Source of the DNA: a virus
Lineage: Duplodnaviria > Heunggongvirae > Uroviricota > Caudoviricetes
IMG/VR virus record: IMGVR_UViG_3300046500_000231
Span: 10,070-74,069 of that record
DNA: 64,000 bases
Strand: one strand, 5' to 3'
In this document: positions 8,797 through 27,300 of the stretch, one piece after another
How the letters are laid out: each line of letters opens with the position of its first letter
How positions within the stretch are numbered: position 1 is the stretch's first letter
Position numbers and translations under genes: made by a program
Notes under the pieces: generated by a model
Database searches by the model: none
The model's input: only the letters and a program-made list of their open reading frames with translations
Told to the model about the DNA's origin: nothing

Positions 8797-10368
8797 ATGG
8801 CAACTCGGAACATGGCTACGATCACCCTCGCCTACAACGCGACCACCGCAAAGCTCGTGGAGACCGACCGGGCGCTCAAATTGGAAGTGCAGAAGCTCGT
8901 CTCCTACAAGGTCTCGGGCGCCGAGAACACCCTGCCCTTCAAAACGGGCGGCTGGGACGGCCGCAGCTCCTTCTTCGACTTCCGCAAAGGCACCTTCCCC
9001 GCCGGCTTCGTGCATTTCGTGGCCGCAGGCCTGCGCCGAGCCGGGCACACCGTGCGCTTTGTCGCCAAAGAGGCGCCCGCACCGCTTGGGCCCCTCAACC
9101 CGAAGATCGACAGCTTCCCGGAAGACCCCCGCTACGACTACCAGATGGAGACGGTCAACCGGCTGGTGAAGCACCGCCAGATCATTGCCCAGTTGGCAAC
9201 CGGGGCCGGGAAGTCACGGGTTGCGCGTCTCGCCTTCGCCCGTATCCGCCGCCCGACGCTCTTTCTCACGACCCGCTCGATCCTCATGTATCAGATGAAA
9301 GACGCGTTCGAGGAGCTGGGAGTGAAGTGCTCGGTGCTGGGCGACGGACAGTTCGGAACGGTCACAGTCGGTGCCGACGGTGAAGAACGACACTCGGTGA
9401 AGATGATGAGCGTTGGCATGGTTCAGACGCTCGTAGCGCGTCTTGCCGAACCGTGCCCGGACGATGACGTCGAGAAACAAAACGAGCAAATCCGCATTCG
9501 CAACAAGACGATCGCGCTCCTGGAGAAATTCGAGTTCGTGATCGGTGAGGAGGCACACGAGGCGAGCGGCAATAGCTACTTTGAGATCCTCAAGCACTGC
9601 AAGAACGCGCACTACCGCCTGGCGCTCACCGCCACGCCCTTCATGAAGGACGATGAGGAATCGAACATGCGGCTCATGGCCGCGTTCGGCCCGATCGGCA
9701 TCAAGGTGAGCGAGAAGATGCTGATCGACCGCGGCATCTACGCCAAGCCGTTCTTCAAGTTCATCCAGCTCGAGCACAAGCCCGCCAAACTCTTTCGCGG
9801 CACGACCTGGCAGGCCGCCTACCGGATCGGCATCGTCGACAACGTGGAACGCAACGCCAAGATCGTGTTCGAGGCGCGTCGCGGGGCGGCGCTCAAGCAG
9901 CCGGTGATGATTCTTGTGCAGCAGACGCGGCACGGTGAGCTTTTGCGGGAGCAACTGGCGGCCAAAGGCGTGCGCGTGGAGTTCCTGCAGGGCGAGAACA
10001 ACGCAAAGGAGCGAAAAGCGGCGCTGGGGCGACTTCGGCAGCGCGAAACCGAGGTGCTGATCGGCACGACCATCATGGACGTCGGTGTGGACGTGCCGGC
10101 GATCGGGCTGGTGATTCTCGCCGGCGGTGGGAAGGCGCAAGTGGCGCTACGTCAGCGCATTGGCCGCGGTGCGCGCGAGAAGAAGAAAGGCCCGAACTGC
10201 TTTTTCGTGGTCGACTTCGACGATCCGTGGAATTCCCACACGAAAGAGCACGCTTTGGCGCGCCGTGCGATCGTGGAATCGACGCCGGGCTTTGTCGAAA
10301 ACATCCTCCCGCCGGGCAAGGACTTCGATTTCGTGGGCCTGGGCTTTGCGACTCGCAAGGCAGCGTGA
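8797..10368 (+). CDS. SF2 DEAD/DEAH-box family helicase
   Basis: Walker A ATGAGKS, DEAH-like GEEAHE, helicase C-terminal motifs (TAT, QRIGRGAR). Confidence 0.8.
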   Translation: MATRNMATITLAYNATTAKLVETDRALKLEVQKLVSYKVSGAENTLPFKTGGWDGRSSFFDFRKGTFPAGFVHFVAAGLRRAGHTVRFVAKEAPAPLGPLNPKIDSFPEDPRYDYQMETVNRLVKHRQIIAQLATGAGKSRVARLAFARIRRPTLFLTTRSILMYQMKDAFEELGVKCSVLGDGQFGTVTVGADGEERHSVKMMSVGMVQTLVARLAEPCPDDDVEKQNEQIRIRNKTIALLEKFEFVIGEEAHEASGNSYFEILKHCKNAHYRLALTATPFMKDDEESNMRLMAAFGPIGIKVSEKMLIDRGIYAKPFFKFIQLEHKPAKLFRGTTWQAAYRIGIVDNVERNAKIVFEARRGAALKQPVMILVQQTRHGELLREQLAAKGVRVEFLQGENNAKERKAALGRLRQRETEVLIGTTIMDVGVDVPAIGLVILAGGGKAQVALRQRIGRGAREKKKGPNCFFVVDFDDPWNSHTKEHALARRAIVESTPGFVENILPPGKDFDFVGLGFATRKAA

Positions 10369-18624: not shown

Positions 18625-18906
18625 TCAGTTCCTCTCGTCGCCGAAATCCACGTTGAAAACACTCTCGTCCATGTCCTGATAGACGCCGGATTCGACCAGG
18701 CTCAGTCCCGGCGGCGATTCGCCCGGATCCAAAACCATCTGCACGCAGGCGCGCACGTCGATCATCCCTTCGGGTCGCAGCAGGTTGCGGGCGTTGCTCT
18801 CGGTGAGCGGAACCGCCGCGGTCGTTGCGACTTTCATCGCTTGATCGAACAACTTCTCCTCGTCGTCGACCTCGACGTCCATCGTGAACGTGTAGAGCTT
18901 TGCCAT
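18625..18906 (-). CDS. hypothetical protein
   Basis: Strong RBS AAGGAGAAG. Start MAKLYTFTMD. Confidence 0.5.
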   Translation of the reverse strand: MAKLYTFTMDVEVDDEEKLFDQAMKVATTAAVPLTESNARNLLRPEGMIDVRACVQMVLDPGESPPGLSLVESGVYQDMDESVFNVDFGDERN

Positions 18907-18943
18907 TTCTCTCTTCTCCTTCTGTGAATTCTCAGGCCTGGTC

Positions 18944-19050
18944 ACTGGCGGCGGGACTCGAACCCGCAATTACCGGCGGTTTCAGGTTTGATGGCGTCGA
19001 GTTCTGGCGCCTCGCTTACCAACCCCGGAAACCCTAGCCGCCCGCGTCTA
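18944..19050 (-). ncRNA. tRNA-like element (T-arm GCGGGTTCGAGTCCCGC) flanked by 17-bp inverted repeats
   Basis: Canonical T-stem-loop. I could not fold a full cloverleaf by eye. Confidence 0.35.
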
Positions 19051-19148
19051 CCAATTTCGCCACGTCAGTGGCCAGGCCTGAGAACCCACCTATCGGTAGG
19101 TCAGTTTCAGCAAGAAATTGCGGGGTTTACGCAACTTCTTGCCAGGGG

Positions 19149-19628
19149 TTAGTGGGCGCTGCTCGGGCGCTGACGGAACGCCGAGTTCAGCAGATCGGTC
19201 ACTTGCGCTTGGATCTGCTCGGGCGAGCCCTTCAGCACGACGTATCCGCGCGGCAGGACGTTCGGGCCATCGCCCTGCGCCATGTCCTTGAGCTGGGCGA
19301 CGCCGGCCGCATCACGCGGTTCGCTCCAGGAGCGCAGGTATTCGTCCTTCGTCATCGACGGGCGCGCGGCCGCAACTTCTTGCTGCGTCGGTGCGGGATT
19401 GACCGGCTCGGCCGATAGGCGCGCGACTTCGGCGGCGAGAACGCCGGCCGCCAGGTGGCACATTTTGTCCACACCCTCGAACATCATCAGGGCGGAAAGG
19501 CGATCCACGTGCGCCTCGCCCGTCATTGCGGCTTCGAGGGCGAAGCGGGCCGAGACGTCACGCAGTATGCGAAGGCCGGCGGACAATTGGGTGAGTGCGG
19601 GCGCGGTGGATTGTGCGACTTGGTTCAT
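19149..19628 (-). CDS. hypothetical protein
   Basis: 159-aa ORF. Confidence 0.45.
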   Translation of the reverse strand: MNQVAQSTAPALTQLSAGLRILRDVSARFALEAAMTGEAHVDRLSALMMFEGVDKMCHLAAGVLAAEVARLSAEPVNPAPTQQEVAAARPSMTKDEYLRSWSEPRDAAGVAQLKDMAQGDGPNVLPRGYVVLKGSPEQIQAQVTDLLNSAFRQRPSSAH

Positions 19629-26607: not shown

Positions 26608-27252
26608 TCAGTGGCGATTTGCGTATTCGCGGGCGGCGCGCATGTAGCGGCGCTCGGCGAGTGCATCGCGCGTGGCGACGTCGGCAAGCGGGTCCGACAG
26701 CACCAGCGTGCCGTTGCTTGGGCGCACCATCAGGTTCGCGGAGTGCAGATCCAGCCCCCACCCTTCCTCGACGTTGCTGGTGAATTTGTGCAGGTCCGCA
26801 AAGCCCTCCTGCAGCGACTCGGGCAGCACTTCGTCCATCGAGAGCTCCTCGATCGCAAGCACCAACCCCTCGCGCTTGCGATGAAAGCGCAGGTGCGTGT
26901 TGGCGTGGGTCGTGGCCTGTTTGCAGATGCGGCGCGCAAGAGCGCGGGCCTCACCGCCCTTCGGCAGCTTCTCCAGCTTCTCGCATTCGAAGAGGTAGAC
27001 GTGGTGACCGTCCACCTCGCCCACTTCGCCGTAGTTGTGCAAAACTCGGGTGAAGTGTTGGCTGTGGCACCCGATTACCTGGTCGGTGCCGAGCATGTAG
27101 GCGTATTGGTCGAGCGTGAGCTTCAGAACGGTGTCGCCATTGTCGAACACGGCGGAAAACGCACCGCGCGCCATGATCTTCTTGCCGCGAATCGCTTCGT
27201 GTTGCCGAGCCTGCTTGATCCCTGCGTCACTGACGCGCAAAGCCTTGAACAT
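26608..27252 (-). CDS. protein-kinase-like protein
   Basis: GLDLHSANLMV resembles the kinase catalytic loop (HGDLHxxN). Confidence 0.45.
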   Translation of the reverse strand: MFKALRVSDAGIKQARQHEAIRGKKIMARGAFSAVFDNGDTVLKLTLDQYAYMLGTDQVIGCHSQHFTRVLHNYGEVGEVDGHHVYLFECEKLEKLPKGGEARALARRICKQATTHANTHLRFHRKREGLVLAIEELSMDEVLPESLQEGFADLHKFTSNVEEGWGLDLHSANLMVRPSNGTLVLSDPLADVATRDALAERRYMRAAREYANRH

Positions 27253-27282
27253 AACCGCACCTCCAGAACTGTCTGTTTCGAT

Positions 27283-27300
27283 AGTCAATTGTGACAAACG
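27283..27300. promoter_or_regulatory. motif copy (TAGTCAATTGTGACAAAC)
   Basis: First of two tandem copies upstream of the kinase-like gene. Confidence 0.5.

What the first reader, a model, noticed from the sequence alone, without database searches (positions are those of the whole stretch)
18931..19087. tRNA-like element (canonical T-arm GCGGGTTCGAGTCCCGC) flanked by 17-bp inverted repeats: possible partial tRNA or attP-type core
On the minus strand the sequence ...GGTTCGAGTCC... with a GCGGG/CCCGC stem is a textbook tRNA T-arm followed by an acceptor-like 3' strand. I could not assemble a complete cloverleaf by eye. The element is bracketed by CTCAGGCCTGGTCACTG (18931-18947) and CAGTGGCCAGGCCTGAG (19071-19087), one mismatch apart, so it forms the loop of a long hairpin. 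Phage attP cores often carry the 3' portion of a tRNA gene, but no integrase is visible in this window. Alternatives are a complete unusual tRNA or a tRNA-mimicking regulatory RNA.
Basis: seen in the sequence. Interest (0 to 1): 0.6.

Follow-up and report, generated by a model that had tools for sequence, protein, structure and literature searches.

The report
Phage tRNA-like RNA with cargo domain
The flagged sequence is a complete but non-decoding tRNA-shaped RNA gene of a large phage, in which the anticodon loop is replaced by a conserved folded 58-base domain and both ends are locked in a long helix; it belongs to a widespread family of phage RNAs that I could not find described.

Summary
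The inverted repeat is the strongest in the whole window (27 nt, 85% complementary).

On the minus strand (19069-18943) lies a complete tRNA-like gene, not a partial one. Rfam tRNA scores 34.8 bits against a threshold of 29. It has a 7-bp acceptor stem, a tRNA-Leu-type D arm and a canonical T arm.

Three features rule out a decoding tRNA:
- A 58-nt insertion replaces the 7-nt anticodon loop.
- Position 73 is G, not A.
- The leader and trailer extend the acceptor stem by 15-20 bp.

Four homologues in unrelated viral contigs keep every helix, including the insertion helices and the extension. Pairing is 97% against 31-44% in slid controls, and 22 of 41 pairs changed on both sides.

A wider family has about 45 distinct members. 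All keep the same tRNA-Leu scaffold but carry about 20 unrelated middles. One phage has five paralogues with identical scaffolds.

attP core, tmRNA, Y-RNA-like RNA and intron-bearing tRNA are each disfavoured or rejected.

Best reading: a natural tRNA scaffold displaying a structured cargo domain, probably released from the operon transcript by a double-strand RNase. What the cargo does is unknown.

The parts
19070..19089 (-). 5' strand of the leader/trailer helix that extends the acceptor stem. Positions -1 to -15 (19070-19084) form the solid core. The outer 5 nt can instead pair in a small upstream hairpin.
   Evidence: the repeat finder arms. MFE fold. Pair listing: 20 positions with one C.A mismatch. 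The extension is conserved and covaries in homologues.
19063..19069 (-). Acceptor stem, 5' strand ACUGACG (positions 1-7). There is an A5.C68 mismatch.
   Evidence: Rfam alignment; pair table.
19044..19062 (-). U8 G9 followed by the D arm GCG-AAAUUGGUAGA-CGC: a 3-bp stem and an 11-nt loop containing G18 G19. It is identical to the D arm of canonical tRNA-Leu(UAG) genes.
   Evidence: Rfam alignment. The same 17-mer occurs in the canonical tRNA-Leu genes of L075 and L082.
19038..19042 (-). P1 5' strand GGCGG, the equivalent of the anticodon stem.
18980..19037 (-). The 58-nt cargo domain that replaces the 7-nt anticodon loop. It contains: internal loop CUA/GAAA; P2 GGG/CCU (19032-19034 with 18984-18986); variable segment 19022-19031; P3 UGGU/GCCA (19018-19021 with 18992-18995); P4 CGAG/CUCG (19011-19014 with 18998-19001); and the loop GCGCCAGAA (19002-19010).
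   Evidence: Rfam reports 58 nt in place of the 5 unshown central positions of the 7-nt anticodon loop. RNAalifold consensus. Pair counts on 5 homologues. CCAGAAC is invariant.
18975..18979 (-). P1 3' strand CCGCC.
18968..18974 (-). 7-nt variable region GGUAAUU (consensus GGYARYU). There is no long variable arm.
   Evidence: Alignment.
18951..18967 (-). T arm GCGGG-UUCGAGU-CCCGC.
18944..18950 (-). Acceptor stem, 3' strand CGCCAGU.
18924..18943 (-). 3' strand of the leader/trailer helix. It begins with G73, which pairs with C-1, followed by ACCA. There is no free discriminator or CCA end.
19085..19142 (-). Conserved upstream leader. It holds a 13-bp hairpin, GCAAGAAGUUGCG-loop-CGCAAUUUCUUGC (19142-19110), then a small hairpin CCUACC-GAUA-GGUGGG (19100-19085) that overlaps the outer end of the long helix.
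   Evidence: Sequence. The same leader is conserved in L024 and L038, and the first hairpin also in L021.
18625..18920 (-). Downstream gene in the same orientation: 93 aa, ATG at 18906, Shine-Dalgarno AGGAG at 18920-18916, which is 3 nt after the end of the helix. No family match.
   Evidence: JGI gene calls on the identical contigs L039 and L040 leave the element intergenic. No Pfam or PHROG hit.
19149..19628 (-). Upstream gene in the same orientation: 159 aa, no family match.

Best explanation
SHOWN. The element is a genuine structured RNA gene on the minus strand, derived from a tRNA-Leu.
- It keeps the parts of a tRNA that form the L-shaped 'elbow' and the acceptor/T minihelix.
- It cannot decode, because a conserved, folded 58-nt domain (P2-P4, with an invariant CCAGAAC loop) sits where the 7-nt anticodon loop should be.
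- Its 5' leader and 3' trailer continue the acceptor stem as a 15-20 bp duplex.
- It has G at position 73.
- It lies between two same-strand genes of a roughly 113-kb phage with T4-like replication genes.
- The same architecture recurs, with compensatory changes, in four unrelated viral contigs.
- A wider family of phage tRNA-Leu-like genes keeps the scaffold constant while the middle varies. One phage has five copies of one scaffold carrying five different middles.

INFERRED.
- The tRNA part works as a natural 'tRNA scaffold': a compact, nuclease-resistant fold that presents the inserted domain.
- The inserted domain is the working part, most likely a binding site for a host or phage factor.
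- Because the leader is paired, RNase P is unlikely to act first. The RNA is probably cut from the operon transcript within the long duplex by a double-strand-specific RNase (RNase III type). That cut would also separate the upstream and downstream messages.
- It is probably not leucylated, since LeuRS needs A73.
For: tRNA likeness:
- Rfam tRNA 34.8 bits against a gathering score of 29, covering all 71 model positions with a 58-nt insert.
- ARAGORN finds it only when introns are allowed.

Conserved structure:
- Homologues L104, L105, L180 and L181 were found through three different anchors.
- On their alignment, 97.1% of pair cells are standard pairs, against 31-44% when partners are slid.
- 22 of 41 pairs changed on both sides, and 0 of 500 shuffles reach the observed score.
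- In the 17-pair extension-plus-acceptor helix, 16 pairs changed on both sides. P1, P3 and P4 each have one compensatory pair.

Wider family:
- 78 loci were retrieved, giving 60 distinct sequences. 41 of these have 7/7 acceptor pairs, and a few of those are tandem-tRNA or att-duplication artefacts. Position 73 is mostly A.
- None of the true members has a canonical anticodon arm.
- There are about 20-25 unrelated middles.
- L016 carries five paralogues with identical scaffolds next to a full set of normal tRNAs.

Genomic setting:
- The element is intergenic according to independent gene calls.

From the literature:
- The engineered tRNA scaffold keeps the acceptor, T and D arms, replaces the anticodon stem-loop with an insert, and is stable in E. 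coli (PMC3753655).
- Sequestering the 5' leader controls RNase P cleavage (PMC7897497 abstract).
- E. coli LeuRS needs A73. C73 abolishes charging and G73 is an antideterminant, while the anticodon and variable arm are dispensable (PMC9976931).
Against: - There are no expression or processing data, so the RNase III step and the scaffold role are inferences.
- Only five sequences support the cargo helices. Each of P1, P3 and P4 has a single compensatory pair, and P2 has none.
- The cargo alone does not fold better than shuffled sequence (z = -0.63).
- In the closest relatives of this phage the tRNA-like part is dispensable. L024 and L038 hold an unrelated RNA in the same stem. L022 keeps only a D-arm relic. 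L021 has neither.
- No protein partner is consistently encoded nearby.
- No enriched complement to the invariant loop occurs in the window.
Confidence: 0.6

Rival explanations
1. The conserved function is the long hairpin itself, as an mRNA processing or stability site between two genes. The tRNA-like interior is a decaying passenger with no role of its own.
For: Related phages keep the stem, with compensatory changes, and the leader, but carry a different interior (L024, L038) or only a D-arm relic (L022). The CM scores the L022 relic at 16.7 bits.
Against: The same tRNA-like interior, including the insertion helices and the invariant loop, is kept in four unrelated viral contigs. 97% of pairs are intact and P1, P3, P4 and the T stem show compensatory changes. 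A decaying pseudogene would not keep these. The D-loop and T-loop tertiary-contact bases are all intact.
Confidence: 0.15
2. It acts as a tRNA mimic or decoy. The tRNA-like body titrates or blocks a host tRNA-binding enzyme, for example a tRNA-targeting defence nuclease, a modification enzyme or a tail-modifying toxin. The insertion serves only to keep it out of translation.
For: The elbow and minihelix are fully conserved. tRNA-cleaving defence systems are common, and phages do carry tRNAs that interact with them (PMC13056530; titles). Most of the wider family keeps A73, so those members could even be charged (PMC9976931).
Against: Neither an anticodon loop nor a free 3' end is available in this subfamily, and these are the usual targets of such enzymes. 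The insertion is itself conserved in sequence and structure, which a mere spacer would not need. One phage carries five scaffolds that differ only in their middles.
Confidence: 0.15
3. It is a real tRNA gene interrupted by a short intron in the anticodon loop. After splicing it decodes Ser, Pro or Leu codons.
For: The insertion sits exactly in the anticodon loop. G follows the putative anticodon, as in Leu and Pro tRNAs.
Against: - No group I intron model matches even at E <= 10.
- The junction is a 3 x 4 internal loop, not a bulge-helix-bulge (by inspection).
- Any splice register gives inconsistent loops among homologues: C at position 37 in L104 and L105, or anticodon AGG in four against AAG in L180.
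- The ends are paired and position 73 is G or C.
- L016 has five same-scaffold copies beside a normal tRNA-Leu.
Confidence: 0.07
4. It is an attP-type core: a phage copy of part of a host tRNA gene, used for site-specific integration.
For: Phage attP sites often carry tRNA 3' segments (general knowledge). The family search did pick up true examples of that kind elsewhere: L075 is a complete tRNA-Leu followed by a duplicated 3' end.
Against: - The whole tRNA-like body is present, including the 5' half.
- No integrase was found among about 40 ORFs scanned.
- The phage resembles roughly 110-kb phages with T4-like replication genes.
- The 3' 21-mer is found in only 5 species genomes, none in a tRNA-Leu.
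- The flanking helix covaries as RNA rather than being sequence-conserved.
Confidence: 0.02

Closest known systems
Canonical bacterial or phage tRNA-Leu (Rfam RF00005)
   Same: 7-bp acceptor stem, U8, a D arm identical to tRNA-Leu(UAG) genes, a canonical T arm, a 5-bp stem at the anticodon-stem position, and a score above the Rfam threshold.
   Different: There is no 7-nt anticodon loop; 58 structured nt take its place. There is no long variable arm. Position 73 is G. The leader and trailer are base-paired, so no free CCA end exists. Default ARAGORN rejects it.
Engineered 'tRNA scaffold' for recombinant RNA expression (Ponchon and Dardel; PMC3753655)
   Same: The acceptor stem, T arm and D arm are retained. 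The anticodon stem-loop is replaced by an insert closed by the anticodon stem. The insert varies while the scaffold stays constant.
   Different: This one is natural, phage-encoded and derived from tRNA-Leu. This subfamily also adds a long leader/trailer helix. Whether it is processed and stabilised like the engineered version is untested.
T4 RNAC and RNAD, small stable RNAs from the phage tRNA gene region
   Same: They are phage-encoded small RNAs associated with tRNA genes, and their roles are unknown (PMC3014915).
   Different: No blastn match to any isolate phage, including T4-like ones, was found.
Bacterial Y-RNA-like YrlA (tRNA-like module on a long terminal stem, partner of Rsr/Ro)
   Different: Here the long stem continues the acceptor stem, whereas in my recollection it continues the anticodon side in YrlA. 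No Rfam Y-RNA or YrlA hit appears even at E <= 10. No ORF of about 500 aa with a Ro-like match is in the window.
tmRNA
   Same: It is a tRNA-like acceptor/T-arm domain with a large structured RNA in place of the anticodon arm.
   Different: This element has a full D stem, no tag reading frame, is 127 nt long rather than about 360 nt, and shows no G3:U70. ARAGORN's tmRNA mode and Rfam find nothing.
RNase III processing stalks that flank rRNAs and spacer tRNAs in rRNA operons, and T7 intergenic RNase III sites
   Same: A long, near-perfect duplex is formed by sequences flanking a stable RNA inside a polycistronic transcript.
   Different: Cleavage here is only inferred. The stalk is directly coaxial with a tRNA acceptor stem.

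Membership tests
tRNA (Rfam RF00005) | Covariance-model score at or above the curated gathering score | tested here: met
   34.8 bits against 29, model positions 1-71.
tRNA (Rfam RF00005) | Acceptor stem, D arm with G18 G19, and T arm with UUCRANY | tested here: met
   Alignment to the model. Acceptor pairs 6/7, T stem 5/5.
tRNA (Rfam RF00005) | 5-bp anticodon stem closed by a 7-nt loop with U33 and an anticodon | tested here: not met
   58 nt stand in place of the central positions of the 7-nt loop. Default ARAGORN reports 0 genes. No canonical arm was found in the explicit test.
tRNA (Rfam RF00005) | Single-stranded discriminator and CCA end, with an unpaired leader for RNase P | tested here: not met
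   Positions -1 to -20 pair with 73-92, with one mismatch.
tRNA-Leu (chargeable by bacterial LeuRS) | Discriminator A73 together with D/T-loop tertiary elements | tested here: not met
   Position 73 is G here and C in four homologues. C73 abolishes charging and G73 is an antideterminant (PMC9976931). The D/T-loop elements are present.
tRNA gene with a group I intron | Group I catalytic core within the insertion | tested here: not met
   No Intron_gpI match at E <= 10 over 18800-19250. The insert is 51-58 nt.
tRNA gene with a protein-spliced (bulge-helix-bulge) intron | Two 3-nt bulges separated by a 4-bp helix at the exon-intron junctions, and a consistent spliced anticodon loop in homologues | tested here: not met
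   The junction is a 3 x 4 internal loop followed by a 3-bp helix. Candidate spliced loops differ in anticodon or place C at position 37. Whether the host has a splicing endonuclease cannot be tested here.
tmRNA | tRNA-Ala-like domain plus a tag-peptide reading frame | tested here: not met
   ARAGORN -m finds nothing even at a lowered threshold. There is no Rfam tmRNA hit.
YrlA / bacterial Y RNA | Match to the family model, and an rsr (Ro) gene nearby | tested here: not met
   No Rfam match at E <= 10. None of the long ORFs is Ro-like.
attP core carrying a tRNA 3' segment | Identity to the 3' part of a host tRNA gene, an integrase in the phage, and only the 3' part of the tRNA present | tested here: not met
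   5 genome hits to the 3' 21-mer, none a tRNA-Leu and none sharing the 5' part. No integrase found. The full-length tRNA-like body is present. The host genome is unknown, so the identity test is indirect.
Phage tRNA-Leu-like scaffold RNAs (family defined here) | Covarying 7-bp acceptor stem, Leu-type D arm, canonical T arm, and 60-90 nt in place of the anticodon arm and variable arm | tested here: met
   Model R1 scores other members at 30-91 bits.
CCAGAAC-loop subfamily (WIN, L104, L105, L180, L181) | P1-P4 cargo architecture, an invariant GCCAGAAC loop, a 7-nt variable region, non-A73, and an acceptor stem extended by 11 bp or more | tested here: met
   R1 scores 155.8 bits for the window and 161-176 bits for the others, although these sequences trained the model.

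The most novel reading that the evidence does not exclude
Phages carry a widespread, so far unrecognised class of natural 'tRNA-scaffolded' RNAs. A constant tRNA-Leu-derived body displays interchangeable structured cargo domains, sometimes several per genome, which act as aptamer-like effectors on host or phage factors. The window element is one cargo class. It is additionally packaged in a double-strand-RNase processing stalk, which in related phages has been reloaded with a different RNA.
Probability: 0.35. Interest if true: 0.8.

Novelty: new variant of a known kind. Interest (0 to 1): 0.62.

Why it matters
- **Missed by annotation.** Default ARAGORN reports none of these RNAs in the window or in the 15 family loci it was run on. 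The Rfam tRNA model reports only the window copy and one of its closest relatives (L064); L104, L105, L180, L181, L013 and L098 are missed.
- **A natural counterpart of a laboratory tool.** If the scaffold reading is right, nature arrived at the 'tRNA scaffold' used to stabilise recombinant RNAs, and phages use it to deploy many different small structured RNAs.
- **A ready-made set of candidates.** The family offers about 20 cargo classes as candidate phage effector RNAs, each with a built-in handle for purification.
- **A separation-of-function case.** Wider-family members with A73 could be leucylated without decoding, whereas this subfamily has lost that option. The contrast helps ask what the tRNA body is for.
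- **Exchange of small RNA genes.** Cargo replacement inside a conserved stem at one locus in related phages suggests cassette-like swapping of small RNA genes.

Tried and rejected
- **Isolate phages.** blastn of the locus, of the element, of two homologues and of an L016 paralogue pair against 50,697 isolate phage records found nothing.
- **Flanking 159-aa protein.** It has no relatives in IMG/VR by peptide patterns. It has only two clusters among 5.8 billion proteins, so very close relatives for covariation do not exist.
- **Two loose viral scans.** The scan on the conserved leader returned only L024's own contig. The pattern GCGGCTAGGG...CCAGAAC returned 76 loci, of which 74 were chance hits.
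- **Antisense targets.** Complements of the invariant loop are not enriched in the window: 16 matches against 9.7 +/- 3.2 expected, one of them the element itself.
- **Conserved protein neighbour.** Contexts differ: DNA polymerase, exonucleases, terminase, UvsX, HNH endonucleases and a CI-like repressor.
- **Hammerhead ribozyme.** The CUGAUG/CAUGA motif in the flanks of L104, L105 and L013 is simply a helix strand, and L181 and L180 pair it differently.
- **K-turn or tetraloop-receptor at the CUA/GAAA loop.** This does not fit by inspection.
- **An encoded CCA end.** ACCA follows an optional eighth pair in the window, but the register differs in the homologues.
- **First cargo clustering.** It was uninformative because the identity threshold lay below the shuffled-sequence level, so it was redone.
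- **Literature.** Five full-text searches found no description of such RNAs. The library omits most subscription journals, so this is weak evidence of novelty.

Full report
**1. The observation**

- The T arm GCGGGTTCGAGTCCCGC lies on the minus strand at 18967-18951.
- The repeat is longer than reported: arms 18924-18950 and 19063-19089, 27 nt, 85% complementary. It ranks first among the 22 inverted repeats of at least 16 nt in the window.
- The minus-strand RNA 19095-18925 folds at -82.6 kcal/mol, z = -3.99.

**2. What lies between the arms**

Rfam's tRNA model matches 19069-18943 on the minus strand at 34.8 bits (gathering score 29). The match spans model positions 1-71, with 58 nt where the central positions of the anticodon loop belong. 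Default ARAGORN finds no tRNA or tmRNA in the whole window. With introns allowed it draws a cloverleaf with a 51-nt 'intron'.

Reading the sequence:
- Acceptor stem ACUGACG/CGCCAGU, with an A5.C68 mismatch.
- U8 G9, then the D arm GCG-AAAUUGGUAGA-CGC.
- A 5-bp stem GGCGG/CCGCC in the anticodon-stem position.
- A 7-nt variable region, then the T arm GCGGG-UUCGAGU-CCCGC.
- G at position 73.

The 17-nt D arm is identical to that of canonical tRNA-Leu(UAG) genes picked up in the metagenome scan (L075, L082).

The 'inverted repeat' is the acceptor stem plus a 20-position extension with one mismatch. That extension pairs the 5' leader with the 3' trailer.

**3. Genomic setting**

- The window is part of a large phage. 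It encodes a DnaE-type polymerase, ribonucleotide reductase, SbcCD, a UvsX-like recombinase, a gp32-like protein, a UvsW-like helicase, ThyX and CobS/CobT-like proteins.
- An identical copy of the upstream protein is recorded on a contig of 113 kb. Two shorter identical contigs were retrieved (L039, L040).
- The nearest cultured relatives by one protein are roughly 110-kb Pseudomonas and Stenotrophomonas phages.
- No integrase or RNA-processing enzyme appeared among about 40 ORFs scanned.
- The element is intergenic, between a 159-aa and a 93-aa gene on the same strand. Independent gene calls on the identical contigs L039 and L040 agree.
- The Shine-Dalgarno sequence of the downstream gene starts 3 nt after the helix ends.

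**4. Homologues and covariation**

Exact-pattern scans of IMG/VR, anchored on three different parts of the element, recovered four true homologues. They sit in otherwise unrelated viral contigs: L104, L105, L180 and L181. L104 belongs to a temperate-looking phage with a CI-like repressor and HNH endonuclease genes.

All four share with the window element:
- P1, an internal loop CUA/GAMA, and P2 GGG/CCY.
- A variable segment, then P3 and P4.
- An invariant GCCAGAAC loop, a 7-nt variable region GGYARYU, and non-A at position 73.
- An acceptor stem extended by 11-14 bp.

Pair counts on the five-sequence alignment:
- 97.1% of 205 pair cells are standard pairs, against 31-44% when the 3' partners are slid by 1-3 columns.
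- 22 of 41 pairs changed on both sides.
- No shuffle out of 500 reaches the observed covariation score.
- In the 17-pair extension-plus-acceptor helix, 16 pairs changed on both sides. The T stem has three compensatory pairs, and P1, P3 and P4 have one each.

Five sequences, two pairs of which are close to each other, is a small sample. The cargo helices are therefore supported but not proven. The tRNA arms and the extension are well supported.

**5. The wider family**

Scanning for the exact D arm followed 65-95 nt later by GGTTCGAGTCC gave 20 viral and 58 metagenomic loci.

- Of 60 distinct sequences, 41 have 7/7 acceptor pairs, with many different stem sequences. All but one also have 5/5 T-stem pairs, and position 73 is usually A followed by C.
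- A few are artefacts: tandem tRNAs, or a tRNA followed by a duplicated 3' end as at att sites (L075, L082, L084, L092).
- None of the true members has a 5-bp stem with a 7-nt loop after position 26.
- Their middles fall into about 20-25 unrelated classes.
- The window class also includes L064 (91 bits with model R1).
- In L016, a Bacteroidota-type phage with about 24 ordinary tRNAs including tRNA-Leu(UAG), there are five paralogues. They share the same acceptor stem (AGUCAGG/CCUGACU), D arm and T arm, but have five unrelated middles of 47-72 nt.

A constant scaffold with variable cargo, in several copies beside a normal tRNA set, is hard to reconcile with intron-bearing isoacceptors.

**6. 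The same locus in related phages**

- L024 and L038 keep the upstream leader: a 13-bp hairpin with the conserved stem GCAAGAAGUUGC, then a small hairpin. They also keep a long leader/trailer stem with compensatory changes.
- Between the stem strands, however, they carry an unrelated RNA of about 100 nt with four hairpins. It has no Rfam match.
- In L038 the downstream gene is the homologue of the window's 93-aa gene, so the interior was exchanged between conserved flanks.
- L022 has a 16-bp stem whose loop is a recognisable remnant of the D arm (16.7 bits).
- L021 has only the first hairpin.

So within this phage lineage the stalk is the stable feature and its content is replaceable. Across lineages, the tRNA-like RNA together with its stalk is the conserved unit.

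**7. Mechanism**

Shown: the fold, its conservation, and the absence of an anticodon loop, of A73 and of free ends.

Inferred, in four steps:
- (a) The tRNA body is a scaffold. This parallels the engineered tRNA scaffold, which keeps the acceptor, T and D arms, replaces the anticodon stem-loop with an insert, and is stable in E. coli (PMC3753655).
- (b) The cargo domain is the effector, because it is conserved within a class while classes differ on one scaffold.
- (c) A paired leader disfavours RNase P. A designed riboswitch controls RNase P simply by sequestering the leader (PMC7897497 abstract). Release would therefore come through the duplex of 22-27 bp, by a double-strand RNase, which would also uncouple the flanking messages.
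- (d) Leucylation is unlikely for this subfamily. E. coli LeuRS depends on A73, C73 abolishes charging, and G73 is an antideterminant, whereas the anticodon and variable arm are dispensable (PMC9976931). By the same argument, the A73 members of the wider family could be charged.

**8. Rivals**

- **Hairpin-only function with a vestigial tRNA.** Section 6 supports this; section 4 argues against it.
- **tRNA decoy.** This is possible, but the usual enzyme targets (anticodon loop, free tail) are missing, and the cargo is itself conserved.
- **Intron-bearing tRNA.** There is no group I core and no bulge-helix-bulge motif. Hypothetical spliced loops are inconsistent among homologues.
- **attP core.** The full-length body is present and no integrase was found. 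The 3' 21-mer occurs in five species genomes only, all unrelated genes.
- **tmRNA and Y-RNA-like RNA.** Neither has model support.

**9. Novelty**

- Five full-text searches found no description of tRNA-like phage RNAs with structured anticodon-loop replacements.
- A survey of candidate structured RNAs in viruses mentions only generic 'tRNA or tRNA-like' candidates (PMC10690425).
- The T4 RNAC and RNAD RNAs remain without a known function (PMC3014915).
- The library lacks most subscription journals, so prior description cannot be excluded.
- I rate this a new variant of a known kind (phage tRNA-like RNA). It has a fair chance of representing a broader unrecognised class.

Noticed in passing
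L024:13120-13262 and L038:3530-3660 (the position syntenic to window 18924-19089): Related phages hold a different RNA of about 100 nt in the same leader/trailer stem. It has four hairpins and several GGA motifs conserved between the two copies, two of them in hairpin loops (AAUCGGA, GGGGGAAA). It has no Rfam match. It could be a protein-sponge type of small RNA.
   Followed up: partly
L022:13725-13775: A 16-bp stem, CTCATGGCTGGCGTCT/AGACGCCAGCCATGAG, whose loop GTCGGTGGCGAAACGGT is a remnant of the tRNA-like D arm. It looks like a deletion derivative of the window element.
   Followed up: partly
window 19110-19142, and 19370-19385: A 13-bp hairpin has the sequence-conserved stem GCAAGAAGTTGC. 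The loop varies in L021, L024 and L038 while the stem sequence does not. A third copy lies inside the upstream gene and is complementary to the first (16 nt, 94%). It may be a protein operator or a terminator without a U tract.
   Followed up: partly
window 19085-19100: A small hairpin, CCUACC-GAUA-GGUGGG, is conserved in L024 and L038. Its 3' strand overlaps the outer five pairs of the long helix, so the two pairings exclude each other.
   Followed up: no
L016: 576-717, 854-981, 1552-1684, 5139-5253, 5596-5709 (minus strand): One phage carries five long tRNA-Leu-like genes with identical acceptor, D and T arms but five unrelated middles. They are interspersed with about 24 normal tRNA genes.
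   Followed up: partly
L016:978-1586 (= L009:11771-12379): A 202-aa ferritin-like/rubrerythrin protein is encoded between two of those paralogues. It has a weak, sub-threshold resemblance to the tRNA hydroxylase MiaE.
   Followed up: no
L045:3472-3576 (Blastocatellia MAG): A non-canonical tRNA-like gene (Rfam 37.8 bits) has almost the same acceptor stem as the window element, including the A5.C68 mismatch. It has a hairpin inserted in its anticodon loop, and a group II intron domain lies 3.4 kb away.
   Followed up: no
L042:809-902 (Caulobacterales MAG): A 93-nt tRNA called Ile(UAU) has a 23-nt variable region and the same T arm and 3' acceptor strand as the window element.
   Followed up: no
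L104:6246-6767 and 9023-9490: Two HNH endonuclease genes flank the homologous element in a temperate-looking phage. This suggests the RNA gene sits in a region prone to homing-type exchange.
   Followed up: no
window 26608-27297 (minus strand): A 229-aa protein has a weak local match to the PHROG family annotated as a T7 gp0.7-like kinase, described there as a positive regulator of RNase III. This could be relevant if the long helix is an RNase III site, but the match is short.
   Followed up: no
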